Shown one piece after another: positions 11,002 to 37,693 of a stretch of 47,697 nt of DNA. The translations under genes and the position numbers were made by a program. Below the pieces are notes generated by a model. The model made no database searches. It was not told where the DNA came from and worked only from the letters and a program-made list of their open reading frames with translations. The stretch comes from Candidatus Nanopelagicales bacterium. Lineage in GTDB: Bacteria; Actinomycetota; Actinomycetes; S36-B12. How positions within the stretch are numbered: position 1 is the stretch's first letter; the number at the start of each line of letters is the position of its first letter. Where the stretch lies: NCBI GenBank assembly GCA_023263845.1, contig JALQUH010000013.1, positions 1 through 47,697 of the forward strand, read 5' to 3'.

Positions 11002-11007
11002 GGTGGA

Positions 11008-11466: not shown

Positions 11467-11580
11467 AGCCCATGACACTACCTACTTTCGCGAAGGCCGA
11501 CCTACGCGAACGGCGAAGCTTGGCGGTGGATCCGCTCCTGCTGCACGTGGCTGGCGGTCTGGCGATGCGGGTGCGGACTG

Positions 11581-12696
11581 CTATAGGTCGGACAGGGTGT
11601 CGTTGGTCGGTTCGACCATGCGGTCTTCAACGAGGTCGTGGCGCCGAACATAGATCTGCAGCAATGAGAGCAGCATGGCGCTCACCGGGATGGCCAAAAG
11701 CGCGCCGGCGACACCGAAGAGGGCGGCCCCGAGAAGTACAGAGACGAAACCGTAGGCGGGATGGACGTCCACCGCCTTGGCGCTGATCTTGGGCTCGATC
11801 GTGAGGTTCTCGATTTGCTGGTAAATGAGAGCGTAGACGAGCACGATGACCCCGAGCCACGGATTGCCGCTCAGCAGACCGACCAGGACGGGCAGGATGA
11901 TTGAGATGTACGTGCCGATCGTGGGCACGAACTGGGCGACAAGTCCGGTCCAGATCGCCAGCGGCAGCCAATACGGCAGTCCGATGAGGAAGAACACGAT
12001 TCCGCTTGCGATCGAATTGATGGTGGCGAGGACGGCGCGGGCGGCGACGTAGCGTCCGGTCTTCTCCGCCGTGATGGTCCACACGTTGACGAAGACTTGC
12101 TGGCTACGCTCGGGAAGCATCGAAGCAACAAAGCGGCGCAGCCGCAGGCCATCCGTGGACAGATAGAACGCGATGAGCCCGAAGGTGAAGAGCCCGAAGA
12201 TGCCTCCCAGGATCGACGCGGCGAACCCGAAGATGCCGAGGGCAACGCCGCCCGCGATCTCCTGGAGTGCGTCGTCGTCAAGGTTGATCTGGGCGAGGAG
12301 CTCCTGCGCCGTGTAGGCCGTCCCGAAGGTGTCGTTGAACCACATCAGCGCCTGAGCGGCCAGCCCCGGCAGGGACTCCACCACCTCGATGAGTTGCTCG
12401 ATGAGGAGCTTGCCGAAGGCCAGCCCGAAGAGAACGAGAAAGGCGGCGATGGCTCCCATGACAGCAAGCGTGGCCACGCCGCGTGGCATGTGCTTCGCGA
12501 GCTTGTCGACGGCTGGAGCCATGGCCACCGCGAAGAACCACGCCATGAGGACGGTGAAGATGACCCCGCCGCCGTCCTCGAGGATGAACCTCGCAAAAAG
12601 AGCGATGGCGAGGACCGCCATGGCGATGAAACCCACCCGCCAGATGAACCGTGCCGACACGGGGTCTCGGGGCGTCGCGGGGTCGGAGTCGGCCAT
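11581..12696 (-). CDS. AI-2E family transporter (second paralog)
   Basis: Motifs QFVPTIGTY, YQQIENLTIEP and VHPA; polytopic. Confidence 0.9.
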   Translation of the reverse strand: MADSDPATPRDPVSARFIWRVGFIAMAVLAIALFARFILEDGGGVIFTVLMAWFFAVAMAPAVDKLAKHMPRGVATLAVMGAIAAFLVLFGLAFGKLLIEQLIEVVESLPGLAAQALMWFNDTFGTAYTAQELLAQINLDDDALQEIAGGVALGIFGFAASILGGIFGLFTFGLIAFYLSTDGLRLRRFVASMLPERSQQVFVNVWTITAEKTGRYVAARAVLATINSIASGIVFFLIGLPYWLPLAIWTGLVAQFVPTIGTYISIILPVLVGLLSGNPWLGVIVLVYALIYQQIENLTIEPKISAKAVDVHPAYGFVSVLLGAALFGVAGALLAIPVSAMLLSLLQIYVRRHDLVEDRMVEPTNDTLSDL

Positions 12697-12719
12697 ATCC
12701 GAAGAGTACCTTTCGGGGT
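12697..12719. promoter_or_regulatory. Overlapping divergent -10 elements in front of two leaderless starts
   Basis: TACTCT on minus (12703-12708) is 6 nt before ATG 12696. TACCTT on plus (12707-12712) is 7 nt before GTG 12720. No room for SD sequences. Confidence 0.6.
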
Positions 12720-13235
12720 GTGACGATCTCGGGAATCACCACATGCCTGTGGTTTGACGGCCAGGCGCAGCAGGCCGCTGACTTCTACGTCGGGCTCTTT
12801 GACGATGCCGAGATGGGAGATGTCAGTCACCTGCCGGATGGCTCGGTGCTCACCGCCGAGTTCCAGCTCTTCGGGCAGAAGTTTCTCGCGCTGAACGGCG
12901 GGCCTCACTACACGCTCACCCCGGCGGTGAGCTTCCAGGTCTTCTGCGACACCCAGGTCGAGATCGATCACCTCTGGTCGTCCCTCACGTCGCACGGAGG
13001 GCACGAGAGTCGGTGTGGTTGGTGTACGGATCGATTTGGAGTGAGTTGGCAGGTGATCCCCCGCGTCCTACCGGAGCTGCTCGGACATGCGGACGCCGAG
13101 GTCGCCACCTATGCGCACACGGCGATGTTGCAGATGGGGCGCCTGGTGATTGACGGACTCACGCCTCCGGCTGGCGACTCAGTATCGGAACCTTCGGCCC
13201 CGGTGAACCTGTCGCCGACCCACGACCCGCTTTAG
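12720..13235 (+). CDS. VOC family protein (PhnB / 3-demethylubiquinone-9 methyltransferase-like)
   Basis: Motifs TTCLWFDGQA, ALNGGP, SFQVFC and CGWCTDRFGVSWQ. Confidence 0.9.
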   Translation: MTISGITTCLWFDGQAQQAADFYVGLFDDAEMGDVSHLPDGSVLTAEFQLFGQKFLALNGGPHYTLTPAVSFQVFCDTQVEIDHLWSSLTSHGGHESRCGWCTDRFGVSWQVIPRVLPELLGHADAEVATYAHTAMLQMGRLVIDGLTPPAGDSVSEPSAPVNLSPTHDPL

Positions 13236-13359
13236 GGCTAAAGTTAGGTCTACCTAACGTGGAGTGGTCCATCAATGAGTGAAAGGGTTGTGCGCGCTCG
13301 TGTCGCAAGTGTGTCACCAGTGTCGTGCCGCCCTGCGTTCCTAGGAGGAAACCCGCACC

Positions 13360-14049
13360 ATGCTGACCGTGACGAAGTCTGCTCTGGTCGTCGAGGACGA
13401 CCCCACTATCCGCATGGTCCTGCGCACAAACCTGGAGAACGACGGTTGTCGCGTGATGGAGGCCGAGACCGGCGAGGCCGCCCTCGTCCAATTGCAGGAC
13501 GAGATGCCGGACATTGTTCTGGTCGACCTGCGTCTGCCGGGCATCCATGGCCTGGACCTGGTGCGCAGTCTGCGTGCCCGTAGCGAGGTGCCGATCATCA
13601 TCGTGACCGCCAACACCGACAGCCACGATGTCGTGGCCGGACTTGAGGCGGGCGCCGACGATTACGTCACCAAGCCATTCGTCACCAAGGAACTCATGGC
13701 GCGCATCCGCCGCCAACTACGCCGTCCGGTCGCGAGCGGCGCCGAAGATGCTGTGCTGCGCTGCGGTCCACTGGAACTTCGGGCGGACACGTGCGAGGTA
13801 TTCCGCGATGGTGAGGCACTGCCCGTGTCGCGCATCGAGTTCGACGTTCTGCAGGCGCTGATGTCGGCGCAGGGGCGAGTCCTCAGCCGCGATTACTTGC
13901 TGCGTACTGTTTGGGGCTACTCCAACGCCGGTGATGGTCGCGTCGTCGACAACCTCATCTATCGACTGCGCGGCAAGATCGAGACCGATCCGTCCCGTCC
14001 TGATCTCCTGCTCACGATTCGCGGCTTCGGCTATCGCATGAAGGCCTAG
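13360..14049 (+). CDS. OmpR-family response regulator
   Basis: Motifs VEDD, D-LRLPG and GADDYVTKPF; winged helix (IYRLRGKIE...TIRGFGY). AGGAGG upstream. Confidence 0.95.
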   Translation: MLTVTKSALVVEDDPTIRMVLRTNLENDGCRVMEAETGEAALVQLQDEMPDIVLVDLRLPGIHGLDLVRSLRARSEVPIIIVTANTDSHDVVAGLEAGADDYVTKPFVTKELMARIRRQLRRPVASGAEDAVLRCGPLELRADTCEVFRDGEALPVSRIEFDVLQALMSAQGRVLSRDYLLRTVWGYSNAGDGRVVDNLIYRLRGKIETDPSRPDLLLTIRGFGYRMKA

Positions 14050-14051
14050 TC

Positions 14052-15386
14052 GTGCGGTCCTTCGGCCTACGCGTCCGCGTGGTCGTGAACTTCGCGATCC
14101 TCTCGCTGGCGGTGGCCGCGGCAGTGTCGGGAGCGACGTACGTCATCGCAAGCTGGTATCTCTCTGGCGAGAGGTCCGACTCGGCGCTCACTCGCGCGTC
14201 CCTCGATGCGCGGGCGGTGAATTCGGCTCTGGCGGCGGGATCCACTCCTGGTGAAGCACTCGGCGTCATTCCGGTCGTCGACGGGTCACAGCCGATGTTG
14301 CGTGTCGGCGGTACCTGGTTCACCTCCACCGTGGCCGTCCCGCCGGACTCGCTTCCTGCCGACTTGCTCGCGCAGGCTGAGGCTGAAGGTGCTCAGCAGC
14401 GCATCGATGTGGCCGGCGAGCCCTATCTGGTGATCGGCCTGCCGACCTCGCGGGGCCTTTTCGTCGAGGTCTTCCCCCTGCGCACACTCGACCGCACCCT
14501 CGTCATCGGCGGGTGGGGCCTGGTGGTCATGACGATCTTCGCCGGCGCGCTCGGCGCTCTGCTCGGCTGGTACTCCGTACGTCGCCTGCTCGTCCCGGTC
14601 GACCAACTCGGTGATGGCGCTCGCTCTTTGGCTGCCGGCGATCTCGACGTTCGGCTTCCAGCGGCGGGTGATCCTGACCTCGACCCGATCGCCATTGCCT
14701 TCAACGACATGGCCGATTCGGTGCAGACTCGCATCGCCCGCGAACAGCGGTTCGCCGCCAATGTGAGCCACGAATTGCGTTCGCCCGTCACCGCCATCTC
14801 CGGTGTCACCGAGTTGCTGGAAGAACGGTCGACGGCCATGGACCCGAACGATGCCAGCATTGTCGGGCACCTTGCTCGCCAGGTACGACGACTCTCGCGC
14901 ATGCTGATAGACCTGCTCGAGGTGAGTCGTATGACGGCGTCTCAAAGCGTTGAGATTGAGCCGGTCGATATTGCGCGCATGCTGACGCAGATCCTTCAGC
15001 AGCACGGCGTTGATCTCGCCCTCTTAACGGGGGAGCGCCCTGTCGTGCGCACCGATGGCCGACATCTTGAACGCGTCTTCGACAACATTGTTCGCAACGC
15101 TGAAAGTCATGGGGCTGGGCTGAGAAGCGTAGAGATCCTGTCGGATCCGGACACGGTGAGCGTGCGTTTCCGCGACTCCGGTCCGGGGATTGACGAAGAG
15201 TTGGCGAAACGGCTGTTCGAGCCGTTCGTGCGTGGAGACAAGGCCGACCCCTCATCTGGAGCTGGATTGGGGATGGCAATTGCGCTTGAGCACGCCGGGG
15301 TCATCCATGCGACGTTGGAGGTGGGCCGCGCCGCCGAGGGCGGCGCGCAGTTCGTGGTCTCGATCCCGTGGGAGATTGCCGCGTGA
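14052..15386 (+). CDS. Sensor histidine kinase (2 TM, HAMP, HisKA, HATPase)
   Basis: H-box SHELRSP, N-box NIVRNA, DSGPGI, FEPF and GAGLG. Confidence 0.95.
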   Translation: MRSFGLRVRVVVNFAILSLAVAAAVSGATYVIASWYLSGERSDSALTRASLDARAVNSALAAGSTPGEALGVIPVVDGSQPMLRVGGTWFTSTVAVPPDSLPADLLAQAEAEGAQQRIDVAGEPYLVIGLPTSRGLFVEVFPLRTLDRTLVIGGWGLVVMTIFAGALGALLGWYSVRRLLVPVDQLGDGARSLAAGDLDVRLPAAGDPDLDPIAIAFNDMADSVQTRIAREQRFAANVSHELRSPVTAISGVTELLEERSTAMDPNDASIVGHLARQVRRLSRMLIDLLEVSRMTASQSVEIEPVDIARMLTQILQQHGVDLALLTGERPVVRTDGRHLERVFDNIVRNAESHGAGLRSVEILSDPDTVSVRFRDSGPGIDEELAKRLFEPFVRGDKADPSSGAGLGMAIALEHAGVIHATLEVGRAAEGGAQFVVSIPWEIAA

Positions 15387-27194: not shown

Positions 27195-27689
27195 TCAGGA
27201 GTCAAGGAGCGCGGTGATGTCGCCGGCAATCTCCGACGGCTTGGTCGTTGGGGCGTAGCGCTTCACCGTGGTGCCATCGGGGGCGACGAGGAACTTGGTG
27301 AAGTTCCACTTGATGGCCGAACCGAGCTTGCCGCCCGCGCGATTCTTCACGTAGTCGAAGACCGGGTGTGTGTTGCTGCCGTTGACGTCGATCTTTGTCG
27401 ACAGCGGGAAGGTGATGCCGTAGTTGACACGGCAGAACTCCTCGATCTCGCCGTCGTTGCCCGGCTCCTGGTGGCCGAACTGATCGCACGGGAAACCGAG
27501 GACGACCAGACCGAGGGGGCCGAGTTCCTCATGCAGTTTCTGCAGGTCGTCGTACTGGGGGGTGAAGCCGCACTTGCTCGCCGTGTTGACCACGAGTACG
27601 GGCTTGCCGGTGAAGTCGGCCATCGGCACCTCGGCGCCGTGGTTGTCGGTGAAGGTCAGGTCATAGAGGGAGTCAGCCACGGACGTCAT
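27195..27689 (-). CDS. Glutathione peroxidase family (Cys type)
   Basis: Motifs VNTASKCGFTPQY, GFPCDQF-x-x-QEPG and KWNFTKF. Confidence 0.95.
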   Translation of the reverse strand: MTSVADSLYDLTFTDNHGAEVPMADFTGKPVLVVNTASKCGFTPQYDDLQKLHEELGPLGLVVLGFPCDQFGHQEPGNDGEIEEFCRVNYGITFPLSTKIDVNGSNTHPVFDYVKNRAGGKLGSAIKWNFTKFLVAPDGTTVKRYAPTTKPSEIAGDITALLDS

Positions 27690-27717
27690 TGTTCCCCGTG
27701 GCCAGGGCAGGCGCCTC

Positions 27718-27747
27718 TTGACGACTGTCGGACCCTGGGTCTACTGT
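27718..27747 (+). promoter_or_regulatory. Housekeeping-sigma promoter of the DnaE2 operon
   Basis: TTGACG (27718-27723), 18 nt spacer, TACTGT (27742-27747). Confidence 0.75.
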
Positions 27748-27763
27748 TCGAACAAGTGTTCGA
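27748..27763. promoter_or_regulatory. LexA (SOS) box
   Basis: TCGAAC-AAGT-GTTCGA is a perfect match to the actinobacterial consensus TCGAAC-N4-GTTCGA. It sits immediately after the -10 and covers the expected start site. Confidence 0.92.
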
Positions 27764-27814
27764 ATACCTGCTTCACGCGATCCACCGTGAGGAGCCCACC
27801 GCGAGGAGGTGACC

Positions 27815-28099
27815 ATGGCCCGACAGTACGCCGCCCCAGTGACAGACGTTGCTCTCACTGCTCGTCGGCCCATGCGGTTCACCTGGCAGGGCCGGGGGTA
27901 CGTCGTCACCGCCGTCCTCGGCCACTGGGTGAGCGGGGCTGCCTGGTGGCGGGCTCCGGAGCAGCCCAACGACGACACCCACACCTGGCGGGTGGAGGCC
28001 TTCCCTCGATCGGCGTCCCGTTCGGCGATCGCTCGCTCCGGGGTCTACGACCTGTCCTGCTCCGGCGAGGGCTGGACCCTGCACCGCATTGCTGACTGA
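27815..28099 (+). CDS. DUF6504 family protein (stand-alone ImuB-C-like domain)
   Basis: AGGAGG RBS; pattern P-x-x-F-x-W-x-G...V...HW-x5-WW...WRV...GVYDL...W-x-L...D. Confidence 0.8.
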   Translation: MARQYAAPVTDVALTARRPMRFTWQGRGYVVTAVLGHWVSGAAWWRAPEQPNDDTHTWRVEAFPRSASRSAIARSGVYDLSCSGEGWTLHRIAD

Positions 28100-28124
28100 C
28101 CTGCACGACCAGACCTGCACGACC
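28098..28124 (+). repeat. 13-bp direct repeat (GACCTGCACGACC x2)
   Basis: Exact copies at 28098-28110 and 28112-28124. Confidence 0.85.
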
Positions 28125-28143
28125 TAAACCGATGGGAGGCGTC

Positions 28144-28542
28144 ATGAGACCCACCACCCCCAGTGCCGACCTGCTCGCCGCCGCCCAGCGTGGATTGACC
28201 GAGGCTGCCATCGCTGAGACAGCGGGAGATCGCTACGCGCGGGCGCATCTGTCTGCATTGCGGTCGGCCGCCGCGGTGTTGGCGGCGCGCGCCCAGCCGA
28301 GCAAGGGCCGTGCGCGACTGCGCAGTGTGTGGTCAGTACTCGCGACTGTTGCTCCAGAGTTGGCGGAATGGGCCGATTTCTTCGCTGCCAGTGCGACCAA
28401 GCGTGCGGCTGCCGAGGCCGGACTGCCCGTCGTCTCCCAACGCGAGGCTGATGACCTCATGCGCGATGCCGAGATCTTCCACGACCAGGTGTGCGCACTG
28501 CTGCACATCGACCGGCAGCAGGCCCTGCCGGCGACGGGGTGA
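28144..28542 (+). CDS. SAV_6107 family HEPN-domain protein
   Basis: Motifs RYARAHLSALRSAAAVLA, W-x-x-L-x-x-VAPELAEWA-x-FF, KRAAAEAG and READDL. GGAGG RBS. Confidence 0.85.
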   Translation: MRPTTPSADLLAAAQRGLTEAAIAETAGDRYARAHLSALRSAAAVLAARAQPSKGRARLRSVWSVLATVAPELAEWADFFAASATKRAAAEAGLPVVSQREADDLMRDAEIFHDQVCALLHIDRQQALPATG

Positions 28543-28552
28543 GGCGCGTGCC

Positions 28553-31500
28553 GTGGAGTTCGCCCACCTCCACGTGGCGTCGGCGTATTCGCTGCGTCAC
28601 GGCGCTTCGATGCCGTCCGAGCTTGCCGCACATGCGGCCGAGCATGGTCAACCGCTGCTCGCGCTCACCGATCGTGACGGTGTCTACGGTGCGGTGCGCT
28701 TCGTTCAGGCTTGCGCGGCACACGGCATCGCTCCCGTCCTCGGTGTCGACCTAGCGCTCGACCTGCCACACGTTGGTGACGCTCAATCGCCTCTGCCTCC
28801 GGTGATTGGAGTGAGCCCGACCCGGGGCGGTGCGTGGGTGGACCCCCGCCACCCACGCGCCGTCCTCCTCGCCCGTGATCGACGCGGCTGGGCATCGTTA
28901 TGTCACCTCATCAGTGCGGTGCATTCGACGCGGGCGACCGAGGGTGGTCACGCCGATGCCCGCGGTGTTGCCGCGACCATGGAACAGATTGCTGCGCACT
29001 CCGATGGCCTCATCGCAATGCTTGGCCCGCACTCACCGCTCCTCGAAGCGCTTGCCGTGCAGCGACCGGATCTCGCTGACTCACTTGTTGCACCCTGGCA
29101 CGAGATCTTCGGCGACGCACTGCGCATCGAGATCGTCAGTCACCGTGCCCAGCGCGGCACCCTGTCCACGATCACTGCTGCGCGTGCACTCGGTTGGGCA
29201 CGTGAACGCGGCATCACCCCCGTCCTCACCCACGCCGTCCGCTACGCCACCCCGCGTCAGGCTCGCGTGGTCGACGTCCTGGACTCTGCCCGCCGACTGG
29301 TACCCCTTGACGAGCGACACCGGGACCGGCCCAACGCCCAGGGCTTCCTCGCTCCCACTTCCTTCATGGCTGAGATCGCCAACGAGATCGCCCGTGCGGC
29401 CGGTGCGGGTCGTCGTATTGCGCGTGATCTTCTTGTCGCTGCCGTCGAGACTGCCCAGGAGTGCGCGCTCACTCCCGCCGATCTCGGCATCGGCGAGATC
29501 GCCGTCCCTGAGTTAGACGTCATCACTTCTCCCGCGCGTGTCGAGTTGCGGGGCGAAAATTCACAAAATTCGCCCCGCAACTCAACACTCGGCGATGGAG
29601 ACAAAGAGGGGGATGCGCTGTTGCGGGCGCGTTGCGAACGGGCGCTGGATCGCTACCGCGGCGCCGAACGCATCGCGGCCCGCCACCGCCTTGAATCCGA
29701 ACTCCACACCATCGCCACCTTGCAGTTCGCCACCTATTTCCTCACCGTCGCTGAGGTCGTTGACCTCACTCGAGATCTCGGCATCCGCGTGGCCGCACGC
29801 GGATCGGGTGCAGGCAGCCTGGTCAACCACCTGCTCGGCATCTCCGGCATCGATCCGATGCGCTACGGCCTGCTCATGGAGCGCTTCTGCACCCCGCTAC
29901 GTCGGCAACTTCCCGACATCGACATCGACGTCGAATCCGCGCGACGTCTTGAGGTCTACGACGCGATCTTCGAACGTTTCGGCGATCAACGTGTCGCCAC
30001 CGTGTCGATGATGGAGACCTACCGCGTGCGCCACGCCATCCGCGATGTCGGAGCGGCCCTCGCCCTACCGCCCGGTGAGGTCGACGCCCTCGCCAAGGCC
30101 TTCCCACATATCCGCGCGCGCGATGCGCGCAATGCTCTGCGCGACCTGCCTGAGTTGCGCACCTCCGGCCTCGGTCGCATGACCGAGCGCGGTGAACTCG
30201 ATCATTTCTGGGAACTTGTCGAAGGCCTGGATGGCCTGCCCCGTCACGTCGCCATGCATCCCTGCGGTGTCCTGCTCTCCGACACCAGCCTGCTCGATCG
30301 CACCCCGGTCGAGCCCAGTGGCCAGGGCTACCCGATGAGTCAGTTCGACAAGGACGATGTCGAGACCCTCGGTCTGCTCAAACTCGACGTCCTCGGCGTC
30401 CGCATGCAGTCCGCCCTCGCCCACGCCGTCGCCGAGGTCGAACGCGTCGACCACGAACAGGTTCATCTCGATGCGGTCCCACTCGATGACCCGCTCACCT
30501 ACGCGCTCATCTCCTCCACGCACACCCTCGGCTGCTTCCAGATCGAGTCACCCGGTCAGCGCGAACTCGTCGGCAAGTTCGCCCCATCGACCTTCGACGA
30601 CATCATCATCGACATCTCGCTCTTCCGTCCCGGCCCGGTGAAGTCCGACATGGTCACGCCCTTCCTCAAGGCACGTCAGGGCTGGGCCGATCCGATGTAC
30701 GTCCATGACGATCTGCGACCGATCCTCGCCGAGACGCAAGGTGTCGTGGTCTTCCACGAGCAGGTGCTCCGCATTGTGGCCACCATGACCGGCTGCTCCC
30801 TCGCCGAAGCCGACGAGACCCGACGTGCGATGGGGTCACCGCAGGGGCAGGACGACGTACGCGCCTGGTTCTATCCCGCCGCCATCGCACACGGCTATGA
30901 CCTCGTGACCGTCGAGAAGGTGTGGGAGGTGCTGCGTGCCTTCGCCTCCTTCGGCTTCTGCAAGGCCCATGCGGCAGCGTTCGCACTGCCCACCTACCAG
31001 TCGGCGTGGTTCAAGGCCCACCACCCGGCGGCCTTCCTGGCCGGCGTCCTCACCCACGATCCGGGGATGTATCCCAAGCGGCTCATCCTCGACGACGCCC
31101 GCAACCTCGGCATCGCGATCCTGCCGCTCGACGTCAATCGATCGGGTGAGACGTACTCCATCGAGCGTGTCCTGCCCGGCGACGAACCACCACCATCAAT
31201 CCTCGGCGCACCGTCACGCTCGGCTCCACCGCCGGAGTTGCCCGACGGTCGCGACTACGGCATCCGCCTCTCCCTCGCCGACGTCAAGGGCATGAGCGAG
31301 GCCGAGATGCAGCGCATCGTGGCGCGCCGGCCGTACTCCTCGCTGTCGGACTTCTGGCATCGCGCTGCGGTGAGTCAGCCGATCGCCGAGCGGCTCGTCC
31401 TCGCTGGGGGATTCGACTCGCTGTATTCCATCGATACCGCGTACGCCGTAGACCTCGGTCCACATCTGCGTCGCCGCCACCGAGTGACTCGACGCGACCT

Positions 31501-32272
31501 GCTCCTGCAGGTGGCTGATCTCGCCCGCGGTGGCCCACGACGCGCGAAGACCGAGAGTCATGTCGAACAACTCAGTTTCGATTCCCTACAGGTCGATGCG
31601 CCGCCACCCATCACCGGGCTGCCGGAGATGGGTCCGGCCGATCGGGTCCGTGCCGAGTTGGAGATCCTCGGTCTCGACGTCAGCCACCACGTCGTTGACT
31701 TCTACGCCTCCATGCTCACCGCACTGAGTGCGATGCATCCACCGCTGGTGCGTGCCCGCGATCTGCTCAGTTGCCGCTCGCAGGGCCAGATCCTCATCAG
31801 TGGGGTCAAGGTCGCCACCCAGACCCCACCGGTGCGCTCCGGGCGCCGTGTCATCTTCACCACCCTCGACGATGCGACCGGCCCGGTCGATGCCACCTTC
31901 TTCGATGACGCCCAGGGTCCCTATGCCAGCACCGTCTTCGGCTCCTGGCTGCTGCTGGTGCGCGGTGAGGTACGCCGTACCGGCCCGCGGGGAGTGTCGG
32001 TGCGCGCCACCGGCGCCTGGGATCTCGGCGTCGTCCACGAGGTGTGGTCGGCCGGGGGAGTCGACGCGGTGCGCGACCTCATCGATGGCTCACCGCAGCC
32101 GACCGCGCAGGCTGGATCACGTCGGGTCCTGGTGCATGCCTCCGGTTTCCGGCAATCGCCGTACGCCGACATCAAGCCGGCCGGCGAGGATCCCGGGCGG
32201 ATACCGGGTGGCAACCGGACCCCCGCTCCCGCAAAACTGTGGCACTCCAGTCCCGGGAGCAGCGGATGGTGA
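28553..32272 (+). CDS. dnaE2: Error-prone DNA polymerase III alpha paralog (DnaE2 type)
   Basis: Degenerate PHP domain (HLHVAS, TDR, THAVRY); RGSGAGS; catalytic PDIDID and KLDVLG; FQIESPGQ; GFCKAHA; OB fold. Lies behind a LexA box. Confidence 0.9.
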   Translation: MEFAHLHVASAYSLRHGASMPSELAAHAAEHGQPLLALTDRDGVYGAVRFVQACAAHGIAPVLGVDLALDLPHVGDAQSPLPPVIGVSPTRGGAWVDPRHPRAVLLARDRRGWASLCHLISAVHSTRATEGGHADARGVAATMEQIAAHSDGLIAMLGPHSPLLEALAVQRPDLADSLVAPWHEIFGDALRIEIVSHRAQRGTLSTITAARALGWARERGITPVLTHAVRYATPRQARVVDVLDSARRLVPLDERHRDRPNAQGFLAPTSFMAEIANEIARAAGAGRRIARDLLVAAVETAQECALTPADLGIGEIAVPELDVITSPARVELRGENSQNSPRNSTLGDGDKEGDALLRARCERALDRYRGAERIAARHRLESELHTIATLQFATYFLTVAEVVDLTRDLGIRVAARGSGAGSLVNHLLGISGIDPMRYGLLMERFCTPLRRQLPDIDIDVESARRLEVYDAIFERFGDQRVATVSMMETYRVRHAIRDVGAALALPPGEVDALAKAFPHIRARDARNALRDLPELRTSGLGRMTERGELDHFWELVEGLDGLPRHVAMHPCGVLLSDTSLLDRTPVEPSGQGYPMSQFDKDDVETLGLLKLDVLGVRMQSALAHAVAEVERVDHEQVHLDAVPLDDPLTYALISSTHTLGCFQIESPGQRELVGKFAPSTFDDIIIDISLFRPGPVKSDMVTPFLKARQGWADPMYVHDDLRPILAETQGVVVFHEQVLRIVATMTGCSLAEADETRRAMGSPQGQDDVRAWFYPAAIAHGYDLVTVEKVWEVLRAFASFGFCKAHAAAFALPTYQSAWFKAHHPAAFLAGVLTHDPGMYPKRLILDDARNLGIAILPLDVNRSGETYSIERVLPGDEPPPSILGAPSRSAPPPELPDGRDYGIRLSLADVKGMSEAEMQRIVARRPYSSLSDFWHRAAVSQPIAERLVLAGGFDSLYSIDTAYAVDLGPHLRRRHRVTRRDLLLQVADLARGGPRRAKTESHVEQLSFDSLQVDAPPPITGLPEMGPADRVRAELEILGLDVSHHVVDFYASMLTALSAMHPPLVRARDLLSCRSQGQILISGVKVATQTPPVRSGRRVIFTTLDDATGPVDATFFDDAQGPYASTVFGSWLLLVRGEVRRTGPRGVSVRATGAWDLGVVHEVWSAGGVDAVRDLIDGSPQPTAQAGSRRVLVHASGFRQSPYADIKPAGEDPGRIPGGNRTPAPAKLWHSSPGSSGW
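29538..29588. repeat. Palindromic element inside dnaE2
   Basis: GTGTCGAGTTGCGGGGCGAA, 11-nt loop AATTCACAAAA, then TTCGCCCCGCAACTCAACAC: a 20-bp stem with one mismatch. Confidence 0.9.
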
Positions 32273-32309
32273 CCCGTTCGCGCGAAGATGTCCTGGTGAG
32301 GTGCCGGGC

Positions 32310-33545
32310 ATGAGCCGCAGCCAGATCCGCCGCGTGGCGAGTCAGACCGACCTCGGCTCCGACGACAGCGGCTGCACGATCCTGCACATCGACATGGATG
32401 CTTTCTATGCCTCCGTCGAACTCATCACCCGCCCGGAGTTGCGCGGCAAGCCCGTCATCGTCGGCGGCGGTGGGCGCGGCGTCGTGCTCTCTGCCACCTA
32501 CGAAGCCCGCGCGATGGGCGTGCATTCGGCGATGCCGATGTCCCGTGCCCGGAGGGCTGCACCCGACGCCATCGTCATCGAACCGAGCCATCACCGTTAC
32601 GCCGAGGTCAGCGCTGGAGTGATGGCATTGTTCAACTCCATCACTCCACTCGTCGAACCGCTCAGCCTGGACGAAGCCTTCCTCGATGTCTCCGGTGCGT
32701 GGCGCCGACTCGGCTCACCGACGGCGATTGCTGAGTTGATCCGTGCCCGCGTGTACGACGAGCAACGCATCACCTGCAGTGTCGGTGTTGCCCCGACCAA
32801 GTTCGTCGCCAAACTCGCCTCTACCCAGATCAAACCTGACGGTCTGCTTGTCGTTCCGGCCGACAAGGTCGTGTCTTTCCTCCACCCGCTGCCGGTTGGT
32901 GCGCTGTGGGGGGTGGGGGAACGTACCGAGGAGCGCCTGATCTCCCTTGGCCTGCGCACCGTCGGCGATATCGCCCACACCCCGGTCGACACCCTCACCC
33001 GCGCCCTCGGCCAATCCGCCGGTCAGCGGCTCTATGACCTGTCCTGGGGGCGTGATGACCGCGATGTCATCCCCGATGTTGCCGAGAAGTCCATCGGCAA
33101 CGAGGAGACCTTCGGCCGCGATGTTGACGATCCCGAGGTGGTTGCCCGCGAGTTCCTCCGGCTGTCGCAGAAGGTGGCCGCGCGCGTACGCCGCCAGGGT
33201 CTTCTCGGCCGCACCGTGGTGATCAAGGTGCGGTTCGCCGACTTCACCACCATCACCCGCTCCCGCACCCTGCCCGAACCGACCGACGTCGGCCAGGTCG
33301 TCTACGCGACTGCTCGGGAGCTCTATGCGGCCCTCGGGCTGCAGCGGGCTCGCATCCGCCTGGTCGGTGTCCGCCTAGAGGGACTCATCGAGGAGTCGGC
33401 CCGGACCGAGCAACTGCTCTTCGACGCGCCCGGATCGGACACGCCAGCCGATCGGCGGGCCGCTGAGGTGGCGGCCGACCGGCTGCGGGACCGATTCGGT
33501 GATGACGTCGTGCGGCCGGCCCGGCTGTGGAGCGACCCCGAGTGA
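32310..33545 (+). CDS. dinB: DNA polymerase IV (Y family)
   Basis: Motifs ILHIDMDAFYASVE, YEAR-x-x-GV-x-S-x-MP, SLDEAFLD, AKLAS-x3-KPDG, KSIG-x-E-x-TF and RLVGV; clamp motif QLLF. Confidence 0.95.
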   Translation: MSRSQIRRVASQTDLGSDDSGCTILHIDMDAFYASVELITRPELRGKPVIVGGGGRGVVLSATYEARAMGVHSAMPMSRARRAAPDAIVIEPSHHRYAEVSAGVMALFNSITPLVEPLSLDEAFLDVSGAWRRLGSPTAIAELIRARVYDEQRITCSVGVAPTKFVAKLASTQIKPDGLLVVPADKVVSFLHPLPVGALWGVGERTEERLISLGLRTVGDIAHTPVDTLTRALGQSAGQRLYDLSWGRDDRDVIPDVAEKSIGNEETFGRDVDDPEVVAREFLRLSQKVAARVRRQGLLGRTVVIKVRFADFTTITRSRTLPEPTDVGQVVYATARELYAALGLQRARIRLVGVRLEGLIEESARTEQLLFDAPGSDTPADRRAAEVAADRLRDRFGDDVVRPARLWSDPE

Positions 33546-34160: not shown

Positions 34161-36458
34161 CTAAACGCCCGCGGTTTCCCTCTGCGGCGCCTGCTCGATC
34201 TGCTCCCCACCACCGATGAGCGAGCCCGGCAACAGCACACTTCGCAACCGAGCGCGCCGGTCCGCCGCAACCCATGCCGCTTTTCGCAGGGTGGCCAGAT
34301 CCTGACGCAGCTCAGCCGGGGCGGATGCGACGATCTGCTCCGGCGCGGCGTAGCGCACCTGCTCCACCCACCACACCAATCGCCGCAGCGCTGCGCGCTC
34401 GTCCTCGCCGAGCGGCATCTGCTGGACCAGGCGGTTGCTTGCCTGCCGCGGTGTGTCAGCGATCGACCAGCGCCATCCCAGATCCCGCACCTCATCGCCC
34501 CATTCCTGCCAGGTGCCCTCGATTCGGGCTCGAGGGTCGGGCAGGGACGTACGCCGGCGTCGACGCCAGCGCACCGCGAGACCGGGTAGGGCGAGCAAGA
34601 GCGCGAGCGTGACCAGCACCGCAACGATCGACCACACCGGCAGCAAACTCCCGCCGCTAGTGGCGGGCGCGGCATCGACACGATCGGCCGGAGTGGGCTG
34701 TGGTGCCGTGGGCTCGTTAGCTGCGTTTGGCGACTGGTCGCGGCTGCTGCCGTAGTCCGGTTGTGTCACGCCGGCGCCGATTCGAGGTGTCGGTTCAAAC
34801 CGCACCCATCCGATGCCGGACATCCACAATTCTGGCCACGCGTGCGCGTTGCGGGCCTGAACGACGTACGTGCCGTCGTCATCCTCCACCCCCGAGGTGA
34901 AGCCGATCACCACGCGTGAGGGGATACCGACCGAGCGCGCCATCAGCGCCATCGTTCCGGCGAACTGCTGGCAGTATCCGATGCGCTCGTCGAGGAAGGA
35001 CTGCAACGGATCGGCACCGGGCGGCGTGATCACCTGCGTGCTGTAGCTGTAGCCGCCATCGCGGGTGAAGTAGTCGACCAGCGCACGGGCCTTCGCATAC
35101 GGCGTGTTCGCGTTCGCCGTGACCTCATCCGCGATGCGGGCCAGGTCCGGCGTGAGCCCATCCGGAAGCGCCAGCCACGGAACGAGGGGATCCGGGGCTC
35201 GTTTGATGGCATCGCGAAGTTCGGCCCGGGTGGGATCGAGCTGGTACGCCGTCACGGCGTACGTCGACCCCGCAGCGGAGACGCCGGATCCCGCCACCGT
35301 GCGGGTCTGGGGATCCCAACTCCACCGGTCATCAAGTGGCTCGCTGATGCCACGAACAGCCGTTGCGGCGTACGGCACTGGCAGTTGGGCGTTGTCCAGG
35401 TCGCTGATCGCGATGTCGGCGGTGAAGTCGGGGAGCTGGGCGACCCCGGGGGCGTCTGGCGGCGCGAGTTCTTCGCTCAGCGGCGTCCGCACAGCCACGT
35501 CTCCGGCCCGCCAGGTCTCTCCGTCGAACTCGTCGAGCACGACGAGGCGGAGGTAGTCGGGGGCGGGGGCATCGGTGGTGTAGCGCAGGACCTCGCGTTC
35601 GGGATTGTCGACCAGATCCCGGCGTAGCGTGACGAACGGGTCGATGCTGACCGGTCCGCTGTCGCCGATGCCGGGTCGGGACCCGGAGGAGCTCACGAAC
35701 ACCGGCTCGCTCAGGCCGGGAATGAAGGTCGGCAGGAGTACGGCGGCGAGGATCGCCACGATGGCGGCTTGGAGCGCGAGCAGTCCGGACCAGGCCGAGG
35801 CGCGCGCCGCCCGGGGATGGGCGCTCGATCCTGCGGCGGCGCCGGTCGGTGCCGCAGGGCGCGGGATAAGAGGCCCCCATGTGCGGGCGTCATCTCGAGC
35901 GTCGACCGCCAGAAGAAGCAACCACCCGGATACCGCGATGGGCAGCAGCCACCAGGTGACCCCGCCGGGGATGACGGCCGCCGGTAGCGCGTACACCAGC
36001 AGCAGGGGCGCGCCGGCCAGGGCTGGCAGCCGCAATGTCACGCCGATGGCGTCCACGACGAGGGCCACCAGCCCGAGGCCACCCACGGCAAGGAAGACCA
36101 GCGTTGGATCGGTGGGCACCGGGGAAAGAACCGTCTCCGCTTCGGTGAGTGCGGTGCGGGCGAGGTCCTGTAGCTCGCCGATGGCCATGGGGCCGGGCAG
36201 GAACCCGAGCACGGCGGCGGGCTGCACGTAGAGCCAGGTGAGCCAGGTGAGGAGCACAAGCAACTGGGCAATCGGCTGCAGTGGCGGGGTCAGGGCCACG
36301 GCGCGGGAGAGGGCGCCGGTGAGCGCGACCAGGAGAACGGCGACAAGGGTCGGGGCCACCCAGGACAGCCCGGCGAAGAGCGGGATGACGCTCACCGCTG
36401 CGGTGACGGTGGCCAAGGCCGCCGCGGCGGTGGCGCCCGGCCGCATGCGCGCGATCAA
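34161..36458 (-). CDS. Membrane transglutaminase-like protein (TgpA; DUF3488 + TGase core + DUF4129)
   Basis: N-terminal TMs; catalytic motifs GYCQQFA, AHAWPE and W-x-x-FEPTP; C-terminal TM. Confidence 0.92.
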   Translation of the reverse strand: MIARMRPGATAAAALATVTAAVSVIPLFAGLSWVAPTLVAVLLVALTGALSRAVALTPPLQPIAQLLVLLTWLTWLYVQPAAVLGFLPGPMAIGELQDLARTALTEAETVLSPVPTDPTLVFLAVGGLGLVALVVDAIGVTLRLPALAGAPLLLVYALPAAVIPGGVTWWLLPIAVSGWLLLLAVDARDDARTWGPLIPRPAAPTGAAAGSSAHPRAARASAWSGLLALQAAIVAILAAVLLPTFIPGLSEPVFVSSSGSRPGIGDSGPVSIDPFVTLRRDLVDNPEREVLRYTTDAPAPDYLRLVVLDEFDGETWRAGDVAVRTPLSEELAPPDAPGVAQLPDFTADIAISDLDNAQLPVPYAATAVRGISEPLDDRWSWDPQTRTVAGSGVSAAGSTYAVTAYQLDPTRAELRDAIKRAPDPLVPWLALPDGLTPDLARIADEVTANANTPYAKARALVDYFTRDGGYSYSTQVITPPGADPLQSFLDERIGYCQQFAGTMALMARSVGIPSRVVIGFTSGVEDDDGTYVVQARNAHAWPELWMSGIGWVRFEPTPRIGAGVTQPDYGSSRDQSPNAANEPTAPQPTPADRVDAAPATSGGSLLPVWSIVAVLVTLALLLALPGLAVRWRRRRRTSLPDPRARIEGTWQEWGDEVRDLGWRWSIADTPRQASNRLVQQMPLGEDERAALRRLVWWVEQVRYAAPEQIVASAPAELRQDLATLRKAAWVAADRRARLRSVLLPGSLIGGGEQIEQAPQRETAGV

Positions 36459-37693
36459 CGGACACTTCCCGGATGCGACGCGAAACCGCGGTTCTGCACG
36501 GAGTCACCGCCCACGGCGGTGCGCCAGGCGGCAGCGATCGATCCGGCGCGGTCGGTGAGTGCCGCGGCCTGCCAGCCTTCAGCCCGTAGCCGATCTGTGG
36601 CTTTGTCGGTCGAGGTGGTGGCGGAGTCGTGCCAGGCGGCGGTGTCGACGATGAGTGCGATTCCGTGCTGACGGGTCGTGGCCACCTGCAGGAGTGAGTC
36701 AGGGCGACTGGTGAGGACCGCGATCGTCAGGTCCGGACCGGGGTGGACAGCGCCGGCCTGCGTCGAGGCATCCACGAGGGCGAGCGCCTCGAGGATCGCC
36801 GCCGCACCGGGGGCGCCGGTGGCCTGGGGAACCAGGGTGCGTCCATCCGTCGACGTCACCTTGACCCGCCACCCGTCGCGCAACAGGTGTAGGGCCACGC
36901 TCGCGGCCGCGCTGAGGGCCACCTCGAGGGAGGCCCGCGGGCCCTCGCCCACGTGATGCTGCGTGGTGAGGTCGATGACGATGGTCGCTTGCCGGGTCCA
37001 GGGGCGTTCCTCGCGACGCACCATGAGCGCGCCGGTGCGTGCGGTCGCACGCCAATGCACGCGACGCAGGTCATCGCCGAGTTGGTACTCGCGCGGGATG
37101 ACGTCATCGTCACCGCGGGATGCCAATGATGCGGTGGCGGCATCGCCGGTCGCACGATGGTCAGCCTCGTGGGTGCCGTCGAGTTCTTCGATCCACGGCA
37201 CCACGAGAACCCCCTCGGTCGCCGTGAATGAACGCCGCAGTCGAACCATCCCGAAGGGGTCGATCGCGGTGACCGCGAGCGGCCCCACCTCGTGGTAGCC
37301 GCGCCGTTCGGCGTGGATGGGATAGCGAGTCGCGCGGAGGCCTTGCGGCGGGACGCGCTCAATGACGCGCCTAGCACTGATCCCGAGATCGGCCGGAACA
37401 TGGTCTTCGAGGAGCAGCGTGCCGGTGCGGATGGGGGAGAGGTTGGTCAGCACGAGTTCGACTTCGGCGGTAGTGCCGACTGGAACCCGTGCGGGGGTGA
37501 CGATCCGCCGTGCGCCAAGGCGCAGATGTGTACGAGCGACGAAGGCGGCGGCGATGAGGGGCAGTACGACGAGCAGCACCGCGATGCGCAGAACGTCGCG
37601 CTGGCCCGAAAGTCCGGCACCGACACCGAGGCCGAGACCGACGGCAATGAGGGCGCGACCGCGGAAGGTGATGGCGGCGAGGGCGGCCTTCAC
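36455..37693 (-). CDS. DUF58 domain protein
   Basis: Motifs DPFG and REYQLGDDLRRVHWRATAR-x-G-x-LMVR-x-EE. Confidence 0.93.
   Translation of the reverse strand: MKAALAAITFRGRALIAVGLGLGVGAGLSGQRDVLRIAVLLVVLPLIAAAFVARTHLRLGARRIVTPARVPVGTTAEVELVLTNLSPIRTGTLLLEDHVPADLGISARRVIERVPPQGLRATRYPIHAERRGYHEVGPLAVTAIDPFGMVRLRRSFTATEGVLVVPWIEELDGTHEADHRATGDAATASLASRGDDDVIPREYQLGDDLRRVHWRATARTGALMVRREERPWTRQATIVIDLTTQHHVGEGPRASLEVALSAAASVALHLLRDGWRVKVTSTDGRTLVPQATGAPGAAAILEALALVDASTQAGAVHPGPDLTIAVLTSRPDSLLQVATTRQHGIALIVDTAAWHDSATTSTDKATDRLRAEGWQAAALTDRAGSIAAAWRTAVGGDSVQNRGFASHPGSVR

What the first reader, a model, noticed from the sequence alone, without database searches (positions are those of the whole stretch)
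27718..33545. LexA-controlled DUF6504 - HEPN - DnaE2 - DinB operon: candidate ImuA/ImuB-independent mutasome
Seen: a TTGACG/TACTGT promoter with a perfect LexA box, then four co-directional genes separated by 44, 10 and 37 nt, with no imuA or imuB. Known: the canonical cassette is imuA-imuB-dnaE2, where catalytically dead ImuB links DnaE2 to the beta clamp through a clamp motif and its C-terminal region. Inference: ImuB's jobs are split up here. An active Y-family polymerase carries clamp and RecA-NT-like motifs, a free ImuB-C-like protein is separate, DnaE2 has its own clamp motif, and an uncharacterised HEPN protein is added. That suggests a two-polymerase inserter/extender system with two accessory subunits. 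These genes are known neighbours in actinobacteria, but I know of no functional description of them as one complex.
Basis: partly seen in the sequence, partly recalled or inferred. Interest (0 to 1): 0.9.

Follow-up and report, generated by a model that had tools for sequence, protein, structure and literature searches.

The report
SOS-controlled DnaE2–DinB mutasome operon
This is a damage-inducible four-gene operon for two error-prone DNA polymerases and two small helper proteins; the type was already predicted in print, but its conserved HEPN gene and double promoter control were not mentioned in the papers I could read.

Summary
A perfect LexA box (27748-27763) lies 52 nt upstream of four co-directional genes: DUF6504, HEPN_SAV_6107, a DnaE2-type polymerase and an active DinB. 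The genome (92.9% complete) shows no ImuA' or ImuB.

The cassette is conserved. DnaE2 follows HEPN in 47 of 86 HEPN-seeded loci. Of those, 42 of 43 have DUF6504 upstream and 33 of 34 have DinB downstream.

The "unknown mutasome" claim does not hold. Aravind 2013, Timinskas and Venclovas 2019, and NAR 2026 already describe solo ImuB-C + DnaE2 + PolY operons. NAR 2026 names an actinobacterial "DnaE2B-[ImuB-C]-PolY-RecA" module in genomes without imuA/imuB, with AlphaFold models.

Two things appear unreported in the papers searched:
- The HEPN gene is a near-constant member. It also precedes a canonical imuA'-imuB-dnaE2 cassette in Dactylosporangium, and occurs with DinB alone or DUF6504 alone, usually behind a LexA box. 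Its Rx4-6H histidine is not conserved, so it is probably non-catalytic.
- The promoter combines a RecA-NDp/PafBC-type motif, the same as upstream of recA, with the LexA box.

Physical association of HEPN remains untested. Verdict: a new member of a known, computationally predicted kind; moderate interest.

The parts
27718..27723 (+).
   Evidence: Read. A TTGAC(G) stretch recurs upstream of the LexA box in most related loci printed. It was not scored as a promoter by the consensus scan.
27726..27747 (+). TGTCGG-N10-TACTGT, a RecA-NDp/PafBC-type damage promoter motif; TACTGT is the -10
   Evidence: the same motif (TGTCGGACC...TACGGT) lies 73 nt before the recA start on C225. There are 12 genome-wide hits against 4 for the reversed control; the motif lies within 50 nt upstream of the LexA box in 32 of 70 related loci and in 0 of 70 control windows. 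Two adjacent WYL-domain genes, pafBC-like, lie on C248. The consensus itself is recalled (Gamulin 2004), not taken from a call.
27748..27763 (+). LexA (SOS) box TCGAAC-N4-GTTCGA, abutting the -10 hexamer
   Evidence: A box of this type lies within 1300 nt upstream of HEPN in 70 of 92 related loci.
27815..28099 (+). DUF6504 gene (94 aa): small all-beta protein of the solo ImuB-C type
   Evidence: PF20114 E 1.9e-11. The AF2 model has six strands, pLDDT 82.9. The profile finds 1359 representative clusters, and the best 150 are all 78-197 aa standalone proteins. It lies upstream of HEPN in 42 of 43 DnaE2-linked loci. GAGGAGG precedes the ATG.
28144..28542 (+). HEPN_SAV_6107 gene (132 aa from ATG 28144; 136 aa if from ATG 28132); predicted non-catalytic helical protein
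   Evidence: PF18726 E 1.2e-32. The AF2 model has pLDDT 88.4, and the top Foldseek hits are HEPN domains at TM 0.58-0.63. R111 is invariant, but the His of R-x5-H is not conserved. The family was found in 34 of 41 genomes of the order.
28553..32272 (+). dnaE2-type Pol III alpha homologue (1239 aa, GTG start): active polymerase site, degenerate PHP site, no tau-binding C-terminal domain matched
   Evidence: Domains PHP, DNA_pol3_alpha, finger, HHH_6 and OB. It scores below the cut-offs of both NF004226 (641 against 1002) and NF004225 (614 against 939). The PDIDID and LKLD aspartates are conserved in 30 of 30 sequences. Also conserved are an internal QLSFD motif and a ...KLWHSSPGSSGW tail. Two PHP metal ligands of Taq Pol III alpha are replaced (alignment).
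32310..33545 (+). dinB (Pol IV, 411 aa), apparently active, with a clamp-type QLLF motif and a conserved C-terminal tail
   Evidence: IMS E 1.7e-50 and IMS_C E 4.4e-32. NF003015 scores 396.6 bits, above its cut-off. Invariant residues are listed. It is downstream of DnaE2 in 33 of 34 loci with enough flank.

Best explanation
This is a DNA-damage-inducible translesion-synthesis operon of the published 'DnaE2B-[ImuB-C]-PolY-RecA' kind, which stands in for imuA'-imuB-dnaE2 in this genome.

Shown: one promoter region carries a RecA-NDp/PafBC-type motif whose -10 abuts a perfect LexA box. Four tightly spaced genes follow. Both polymerases keep their catalytic residues, and the DnaE2 PHP site is degenerate.

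Inferred: after damage, PafBC activation and LexA cleavage together switch on one transcript.
- DinB is brought to the clamp by its QLLF motif and to RecA by its C-terminal tail.
- The small beta-barrel DUF6504 protein plays the part of ImuB's C-terminal domain and docks on the DnaE2 PHP domain, as in the published AlphaFold models of ImuB-C with DnaE2.
- DnaE2, which lacks proofreading, extends past the lesion, possibly using its own QLSFD clamp motif.
- The HEPN protein lacks the conserved catalytic histidine. I take it to be a non-enzymatic accessory or regulatory factor of actinobacterial SOS polymerases in general, not of this cassette only.
For: - Anatomy.
- No ImuA' or ImuB in the genome.
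- ImuA' versus this DnaE2 type across 41 relatives: no genome was seen with both. 34 have DnaE2 at 56% identity or more, and only G027 and G029 have ImuA' over its cut-off, next to a 36-37% DnaE hit.
- HEPN and this DnaE2 co-occur in 32 of those 34. In the other two, G003 and G024, the DnaE2 match is cut at a contig end.
- Cassette conservation: 47 of 86, 42 of 43 and 33 of 34.
- LexA box in 70 of 92 loci; RecA-NDp-type motif next to it in 32 of 70 loci against 0 of 70 controls. The same motif lies upstream of recA in this genome, and pafBC-like genes are present.
- Catalytic residues conserved.
- Literature: the module and its AlphaFold models are in PMC12926913, sections 20 and 22, which I read. 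In Streptomyces venezuelae, dnaE2-dinP is LexA-bound and induced 30.6-fold and 13.7-fold by mitomycin C (PMC9380542, Table 1, passages read).
- A 770-nt contig from an RNA library of a roughly 90% identical relative spans 28109-28866, covering HEPN into dnaE2. This is weak support.
Against: - There is no direct evidence of transcription, induction or complex formation for this locus. The RNA-library contigs may be DNA carry-over, and they come from a relative.
- Likeness of the DinB tail to the RecA N-terminus is not significant here.
- The link between DUF6504 and ImuB-C is weak in my tests and rests on Pfam and the literature.
- HEPN also occurs away from DnaE2: with DinB only, with DUF6504 only, or alone. 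It is therefore not specific to this module.
- S. coelicolor dnaE2 mutants had no UV or mutagenesis phenotype according to PMC3919608 (introduction passage read).
- The genome is incomplete (92.9%).
Confidence: 0.7

Rival explanations
1. The genes are co-regulated but independent. DinB acts alone as an ordinary Pol IV and DnaE2 with DUF6504 forms a separate pair. HEPN is an SOS protein with some other job, such as a checkpoint, RNA binding or regulation. On this view the operon is only a shared promoter, not a four-part machine.
For: - HEPN-DinB pairs without DnaE2 or DUF6504 occur (for example L045, L055, L064, L088, L111). DUF6504-HEPN pairs without either polymerase within 10 kb occur in Pseudonocardia records (L060, L065, L076, L085, L109).
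- NAR 2026 lists a DnaE2B group linked only to ImuB-C (section 20).
- In Propionibacteriaceae loci, DinB has its own LexA box between HEPN and dinB.
Against: - Where this DnaE2 type is present, the order is nearly fixed (42 of 43 and 33 of 34), with gaps of 10-44 nt in the window.
- Conserved short motifs on the DinB and DnaE2 tails suggest partner binding.
- The published models place ImuB-C, PolY and DnaE2 in one complex (PMC12926913, section 22).
Confidence: 0.24
2. The HEPN protein is an RNase toxin or a phage-defence component that happens to sit in an SOS operon.
For: HEPN is mostly a family of RNase toxins (PMC3710099, abstract). There are weak matches to the PADLOC candidate PDC-M05B, E 1.2e-05 at 23.6 bits. 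In this genus an R-x5-H string exists.
Against: The His is not conserved in 14 sequences from the order, and only R111 is invariant. PMC3710099's table lists SAV_6107 as lacking a conserved Rx4-6H. No MNT or other antitoxin-like gene is adjacent. The gene is a single-copy, order-wide core gene next to polymerases.
Confidence: 0.04
3. The adjacency is fortuitous or a relic, and the LexA box serves only the divergent glutathione peroxidase gene (27195-27689, minus strand).
For: The 125-nt intergenic region is shared with gpx.
Against: The box and cassette travel together in many orders with different upstream neighbours. All four reading frames are intact with conserved catalytic residues.
Confidence: 0.02

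Closest known systems
DnaE2B-[ImuB-C]-PolY-RecA association module (PMC12926913, NAR 2026; representative Tessaracoccus lapidicaptus)
   Same: [quoted passage not shown] Both occur in actinobacterial genomes without imuA/imuB.
   Different: The paper's main text does not mention a HEPN gene, LexA or PafBC control (0 occurrences of 'HEPN', 'LexA' and 'DUF'). Here HEPN lies between the ImuB-C-type gene and dnaE2. I could not place this DnaE2 on the authors' tree, and supplements are closed.
Mycobacterial ImuA'-ImuB-DnaE2 mutasome
   Same: Both are SOS-box controlled. In both, DnaE2 is the presumed extender, a clamp-binding Y-family scaffold is present, and an ImuB-C-type beta domain is present.
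   Different: This locus has no ImuA'. Its Y-family member is catalytically intact, and the ImuB-C-type domain is a separate protein. DnaE2 ends in ...KLWHSSPGSSGW, not the SRDF[H/R] motif reported for about 77% of DnaE2 (PMC3919608, section 21). It is only about 30% identical to the canonical DnaE2 of L072.
Streptomyces dnaE2-dinB2 (dinP) SOS operon
   Same: dnaE2 is followed by a dinB-type gene under LexA control, and the operon is experimentally damage-induced (PMC9380542).
   Different: Streptomyces DinB2 is reported as inactive, and the operon is said to lack ImuB-C (PMC6511836, section 17). In the one Streptomycetaceae record I saw (Kitasatospora, L069), the HEPN gene sits elsewhere, next to a methyltransferase and DUF3040.
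Geobacter lexA-imuB-C-polY operon and other solo ImuB-C operons (PMC3765255; PMC6511836)
   Same: A standalone ImuB-C is paired with an active PolY in an SOS operon.
   Different: Those operons have no DnaE2 and no HEPN, and lexA itself is in the operon there.
HEPN-MNT toxin-antitoxin and HEPN RNases
   Same: They share the fold.
   Different: The catalytic His is not conserved, there is no MNT partner, and the context is polymerases.

Membership tests
DnaE2B-[ImuB-C]-PolY-RecA module (NAR 2026) | DnaE2 homologue not of the ImuA/ImuB-associated group | tested here: inconclusive
   It scores below the 'error-prone DNA polymerase' cut-off (614 against 939), whereas the canonical DnaE2 of L072 scores 1499. 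It is about 30% identical to that DnaE2 and 34-35% to DnaE1. No tree was built with the authors' sequences.
DnaE2B-[ImuB-C]-PolY-RecA module (NAR 2026) | Genome lacks imuA and imuB | tested here: met
   There is one IMS hit and one DUF6504 hit, both in the operon. NF058630 hits only RecA, below its cut-off. The genome is 92.9% complete.
DnaE2B-[ImuB-C]-PolY-RecA module (NAR 2026) | Adjacent, apparently active Y-family polymerase | tested here: met
   The DMDAF and SLDEAF motifs are present. D28, D30 and D121 are invariant and E122 is at least 90% conserved in 22 sequences.
DnaE2B-[ImuB-C]-PolY-RecA module (NAR 2026) | Standalone ImuB-C family protein | tested here: inconclusive
   PF20114 is met, and that model also rings in Caulobacter among the 14 controls. 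The model is all-beta. However, hhalign to an actinobacterial ImuB C-terminus gives only E 0.093. Pfam finds nothing in that C-terminus. No IMS-fused long form was found.
DnaE2B-[ImuB-C]-PolY-RecA module (NAR 2026) | RecA-NT-like motif on the PolY tail | tested here: inconclusive
   The tail is conserved: R383, A388, D390 and G397 are invariant, and F396, V401, P403, A404 and L406 are at least 90% conserved. The best ungapped match to this genome's RecA N-terminus is the expected register, but it is no better than 70 of 500 shuffles. BLASTP finds nothing.
DnaE2B-[ImuB-C]-PolY-RecA module (NAR 2026) | The proteins form a complex | not testable with these tools
   See Tried and rejected. It needs biochemistry.
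Canonical ImuA'-ImuB-DnaE2 cassette | ImuA' (RecA-like, inactive) present | tested here: not met
Canonical ImuA'-ImuB-DnaE2 cassette | Catalytically dead ImuB with fused C-terminal domain | tested here: not met
   The only Y-family gene keeps its catalytic residues and has no fused DUF6504.
Canonical ImuA'-ImuB-DnaE2 cassette | DnaE2 C-terminal SRDF[H/R] motif (about 77% of DnaE2; PMC3919608) | tested here: not met
   The C-terminus reads ...KLWHSSPGSSGW. That tail is conserved in 27 of 30 orthologues.
HEPN superfamily, catalytic (RNase) members | HEPN fold | tested here: met
   PF18726 E 1.2e-32. The best Foldseek rows are 2hsb, 1wol, 1ufb and 3o10, at TM 0.58-0.63 but E of 0.027 or more.
HEPN superfamily, catalytic (RNase) members | Conserved Rx4-6H motif | tested here: not met
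   R111 is invariant, but position 117 is His only in the two genus-level sequences of 14. This agrees with the table in PMC3710099.
Actinobacterial LexA (SOS) regulon | TCGAAC-N4-GTTCGA operator in the promoter region, with LexA encoded in the genome | tested here: met
Actinobacterial LexA (SOS) regulon | Induction by DNA damage | not testable with these tools
   There is only an analogy to S. venezuelae dnaE2-dinP (PMC9380542).
RecA-NDp / PafBC regulon | TGTCRG-type element at fixed spacing from a TANNNT -10, with PafBC present | tested here: met
   The motif is at 27726-27747, and the same motif lies before recA. Two adjacent WYL genes are present. The consensus is recalled, and the identity of the WYL genes as pafBC was not tested further.

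The most novel reading that the evidence does not exclude
The SAV_6107-type HEPN protein is a so far unrecognised, non-catalytic, damage-induced accessory factor shared by actinobacterial error-prone polymerase systems of different make-up: DnaE2B with solo ImuB-C and DinB, canonical ImuA'-ImuB-DnaE2, and DinB alone. These operons would be under joint PafBC activation and LexA repression. If so, the current subunit lists of actinobacterial mutasomes are missing a component.
Probability: 0.3. Interest if true: 0.7.

Novelty: new member of a known kind. Interest (0 to 1): 0.45.

Why it matters
[quoted passage not shown] The ImuA/ImuB-independent forms are known only from comparative genomics and structure prediction.

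This locus is a clean, compact example in a small free-living genome. It shows two things that the papers I read do not mention.

- A conserved HEPN-fold gene sits in the cassette and also precedes a canonical imuA'-imuB-dnaE2 cassette in another family.
- The promoter joins the two actinobacterial damage pathways, PafBC and LexA.

Both points are directly testable in cultivable, harmless actinobacteria that carry the same cassette.

Tried and rejected
- Complex prediction (collected). I sent four chains: DUF6504 (A2), DnaE2 residues 1-350 (A3), DinB (A4), and HEPN (A1) as the partner. The verdict was 'no answer' with scores of 0.00 and 0.00, and the controls were not folded. This is neither support for nor evidence against binding.
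- RecA-NT likeness. BLASTP of the last 45 residues of DinB against the first 45 of RecA gave no alignment. An ungapped BLOSUM62 scan found the expected register, but 70 of 500 shuffles scored as high.
- DUF6504 as ImuB-C. hhalign of A2 against the ImuB of L072 gave E 0.093 at ImuB 450-486. A Pfam scan of that C-terminus at E up to 10 gave nothing. The search for longer proteins found one 296-aa protein and no IMS fusion. The 150 listed rows of the 1.84-billion-protein profile search are all short standalone proteins, and weaker rows were not shown.
- Foldseek of the DUF6504 model against the PDB found no match at E of 0.001 or less; the best was cystatin at TM 0.46. That agrees with the 'novel fold' remark in NAR 2026 but proves nothing.
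- Fusions of HEPN. There were 11 long proteins, all single records: two with PHP or Pol III alpha domains (P0280, P0286) and one with a methyltransferase domain (P0281). They look like read-through gene calls of neighbouring genes, so I did not use them as Rosetta-stone evidence.
- The upstream-ORF clustering for loci without DUF6504 and my crude GC3 gene caller gave only high-GC noise.
- The sigma-70 scan found 0 promoters and no terminator after dinB.
- RNA runs X19 and X20 hold only 5% of the sampled words. The contigs laid are 90-95% alike and patchy. Parts without cover mean nothing.
- The ESM Atlas returned only the protein's own family.
- Literature searches that found nothing: 'DUF6504' gave 0 papers and 'HEPN' with 'DnaE2' gave 0 papers. 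'SAV_6107' gave one paper, which has only a table row. The supplementary tables and figures of PMC6511836 and PMC12926913 may show the HEPN neighbour, and I could not check this.
- The letters of the RecA-NDp consensus were not in any passage I read. I quote it from recall.

Full report
WHAT IS THERE. The intergenic region 27690-27814 holds TTGACG (27718-27723), TGTCGG (27726-27731), TACTGT (27742-27747) and, abutting it, the perfect palindrome TCGAAC-AAGT-GTTCGA (27748-27763). Four genes follow on the + strand.
- DUF6504: 27815-28099, 94 aa, PF20114 E 1.9e-11.
- HEPN_SAV_6107: 28132 or 28144 to 28542, PF18726 E 1.2e-32.
- A Pol III alpha homologue: GTG 28553-32272, 1239 aa, with PHP, polymerase, finger, HhH and OB domains.
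- DinB: 32310-33545, 411 aa, IMS E 1.7e-50. NF003015 scores 396.6 bits against a cut-off of 367.
That ATG is preceded by GGGAGG and matches the 132-aa database homologues. Upstream, on the other strand, lies a glutathione peroxidase gene (27195-27689). Downstream and convergent lie TgpA-type transglutaminase and DUF58 genes.

IS THE BOX MORE THAN CHANCE? The box is the only match in the window even with one mismatch allowed; 0.17 are expected. The 2.52-Mb genome holds only two perfect boxes. The other is on C167, beside the 5' end of a gene whose product reads as the LexA N-terminal domain, with nrdR nearby. In loci seeded on the HEPN gene from many actinomycete orders, a box TCGAAY-N4-GYTCGW lies within 1300 nt upstream of HEPN in 70 of 92 non-duplicate loci that have at least 600 nt of upstream sequence. 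In the listing, which included the window and two duplicates (94 loci), 72 had the box, 19 had a version with 1-2 mismatches and 3 had none.

NO ImuA' OR ImuB. The genome has one IMS match and one DUF6504 match, both in this operon. NCBIfam's ImuA' model (NF058630) hits only RecA, at 30.9 bits against a cut-off of 65. The assembly is 92.9% complete in 295 contigs, so a missing piece cannot be excluded. The pattern among 41 genomes of the same order argues against that.
- 34 have a DnaE2 at least 56% identical to this one.
- ImuA' passes its cut-off only in G027 and G029. In both it lies a few kb from a DnaE hit of 36-37% identity. These are two of the seven genomes without this DnaE2 type.
- The two systems were therefore not seen together in any of the 41 genomes.

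THE CASSETTE IS A UNIT.
- Among the 41 genomes, HEPN was found in 34.
- 32 have both HEPN and this DnaE2. In G003 and G024 the DnaE2 match begins at a contig end. G027 and G029 have HEPN only. G010, G011, G012, G023 and G038 have neither.
- Of 18 loci fetched from the order, 15 show DUF6504-HEPN-DnaE2-DinB in that order. One is cut by a contig end. G029 has HEPN-DinB and G027 has HEPN alone.
- A scan of one genome per species with the HEPN alignment found at least 589 stretches, and the 80 best were kept.
- Over 96 non-duplicate loci, DnaE2 starts within 500 nt after HEPN in 47 of 86 loci with at least 1.5 kb downstream.
- Of those 47, 42 of the 43 with enough upstream sequence have DUF6504 directly upstream. 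Of the 34 with at least 7 kb downstream, 33 have DinB on the same strand.

THE ENZYMES.
- DinB: D28, D30 and D121 are invariant and E122 is at least 90% conserved in 22 sequences. Q368-L369, the start of a QLLF/QLxL clamp-type motif, is invariant. The tail (R383, A388, D390, F396, G397, V401, P403, A404, L406) is conserved.
- DnaE2: the PDxDxD and LKLD aspartates are kept in 30 of 30 orthologues.
- A Q[LIMF]x[LF] motif (QLSFD here) follows a hypervariable linker in 29 of 30.
- The extreme C-terminus ...KLWHSSPGSSGW is kept in 27 of 30. This differs from the SRDF[H/R] end reported for most DnaE2 (PMC3919608, section 21, passage read).
- In the alignment to Taq Pol III alpha, two PHP metal-ligand histidines are replaced, so proofreading is probably lost.
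- The protein falls below the NCBIfam cut-offs of both replicative DnaE and 'error-prone DNA polymerase'. The DnaE2 next to ImuA'-ImuB in Dactylosporangium scores 1499 against the 939 cut-off.

THE TWO SMALL PROTEINS.
- DUF6504 is predicted as six beta strands, pLDDT 82.9. Its profile finds 1359 representative clusters at E of 0.001 or less, and the 150 listed are all 78-197 aa.
- Its equation with ImuB's C-terminal domain rests mainly on the literature (PMC3765255; PMC6511836; PMC12926913). Pfam's model also rings in Caulobacter among the controls. My direct tests were weak.
- The HEPN protein is predicted as a helical bundle, pLDDT 88.4. Solved HEPN domains are its best, though weak, Foldseek matches.
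- In 14 sequences from the order, R111 is invariant but the histidine of the R-x5-H string is present only within the genus. PMC3710099's table likewise lists SAV_6107 as lacking the conserved Rx4-6H.
- Sources name its homologues only as 'SAV_6107 family HEPN domain-containing protein' or 'hypothetical', apart from three jgi rows with unrelated names.

WHERE ELSE THE HEPN GENE SITS. In the 39 of 86 loci without an adjacent DnaE2 of this type, I saw four arrangements.
- (a) HEPN, then a LexA box, then DinB, mostly in records labelled Propionibacteriaceae.
- (b) DUF6504-HEPN with no polymerase within 10 kb, in Pseudonocardia records.
- (c) HEPN followed by a methyltransferase and DUF3040, in Kitasatospora L069.
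- (d) In Dactylosporangium and Pilimelia records, HEPN followed 2.5-4.4 kb downstream by a DnaE2 only about 30% identical to this one.
In L072 (Dactylosporangium aurantiacum) the order is: LexA box, HEPN, ImuA' (11422-12171, NF058630 E 1.3e-49), ImuB (12514-14064, IMS E 8.1e-16), then canonical DnaE2. HEPN is therefore linked to SOS polymerases in general, not to the ImuA/ImuB-free form only.

THE PROMOTER.
- The consensus sigma-70 scan finds nothing here.
- TGTCGG-N10-TACTGT matches, in sequence and spacing, what I recall as the RecA-NDp motif of Gamulin et al. 2004 (tTGTCRgtg-N8-TAnnnT). The reviews I read say PafBC activates through this motif and that it co-occurs with SOS boxes at some genes (PMC8223512 and PMC6789036, passages read). 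None of the passages gave the letters.
- In this genome the pattern occurs 12 times against 4 for the reversed control. One copy lies 73 nt before recA.
- Two adjacent WYL-domain genes are present.
- Among related loci with a LexA box, 32 of 70 have the motif within 50 nt upstream of the box, against 0 of 70 control windows. The -10 abuts the box in 8 loci and lies 8-9 nt from it in 21.
- I read this as activation by PafBC and repression by LexA at one promoter. This is an inference.

EXPRESSION. Two metatranscriptome runs hold 5% of the sampled words. One of their contigs (770 nt, about 90% alike) covers 28109-28866, from before HEPN into dnaE2. Another covers 27676-28124. They come from a relative, and DNA carry-over is not excluded, so this is a weak hint only. 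In Streptomyces venezuelae, dnaE2 and dinP are LexA-bound and induced 30.6-fold and 13.7-fold by mitomycin C (PMC9380542, Table 1).

COMPARISON WITH WHAT IS KNOWN.
- Aravind et al. 2013 noted solo ImuB-C genes in operons with DnaE2 (PMC3765255, section 7).
- Timinskas and Venclovas 2019 described ImuA-less variants with active or inactive PolY, solo ImuB-C and/or DnaE2 (PMC6511836, section 17).
- The 2026 survey defines DnaE2B groups in genomes without imuA/imuB. One has an active PolY, solo ImuB-C and RecA, and is found only in Actinobacteria. It reports AlphaFold models above threshold for all 11 module types (PMC12926913, sections 20, 22, 23).
None of these three texts contains the word HEPN. 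The 2026 text contains neither 'LexA' nor 'DUF'. No paper in the library holds both 'HEPN' and 'DnaE2' or the word 'DUF6504'. Supplements were closed and may show the neighbour.

VERDICT. The locus is real, conserved and well explained as a member of a known, computationally predicted kind of SOS mutasome. The modest novelty lies in the HEPN gene's constant presence and wider association, the distinct DnaE2 C-terminal motif, and the combined PafBC/LexA promoter. All mechanistic steps beyond gene content and motif conservation are inferred.

Noticed in passing
L072:9521-17378 (Dactylosporangium aurantiacum record); similar in L070, L075, L079, L051, L067: The SAV_6107-type HEPN gene, behind a LexA box, directly precedes a canonical imuA'-imuB-dnaE2 cassette. 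Two further short open frames of unknown family lie in between (10787-11152 or 11174-11725, and 12173-12523).
   Followed up: partly
window 32150-32272 and the same place in 27 of 30 orthologues: This DnaE2 type ends in a conserved ...SGFRQSPYADIKPAG...(variable)...KLWHSSPGSSGW tail, unlike the SRDF[H/R] end of canonical DnaE2. It looks like a docking motif for an unknown partner.
   Followed up: partly
window about 31520-31570 (DnaE2 residues about 990-1005): A hypervariable linker, from a few residues to roughly 100, separates the HhH region from the conserved QLxLD/QLSFD clamp-type motif in orthologues.
   Followed up: no
G000 contigs C225, C174 (both strands), C219, C260, C161: The extended motif TGTC(A/G)GACC-N7-TA(C/G)NNT occurs upstream of recA. 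It also occurs before a gene whose product begins like a DnaQ-type exonuclease, and at four more places. This is a candidate PafBC regulon of the genome.
   Followed up: partly
G000:C167:1-1900 (L113): The genome's only other perfect LexA box lies between a divergent lexA (cut by the contig end) and a LysM-like gene. nrdR lies downstream.
   Followed up: no
window 27195-27689 (-): A glutathione peroxidase gene is transcribed divergently from the same 125-nt intergenic region that holds the damage promoter and LexA box. It might share the control.
   Followed up: no
window 34161-37693 (-): TgpA-type transglutaminase and DUF58 genes are convergent with the operon. No terminator-like site was found between dinB and them.
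   Followed up: no
P0002 against PADLOC: The HEPN protein matches the defence-candidate component PDC-M05B weakly (E 1.2e-05, 23.6 bits). DUF6504 and DinB match nothing there.
   Followed up: no
P0280, P0286, P0281: Single-record long proteins join the HEPN domain to PHP or Pol III alpha, or to a methyltransferase domain. They are probably read-through gene calls of adjacent genes.
   Followed up: no
L069, L065, L090: In several families the HEPN gene neighbours a SAM-methyltransferase and a DUF3040 gene instead of DnaE2.
   Followed up: partly
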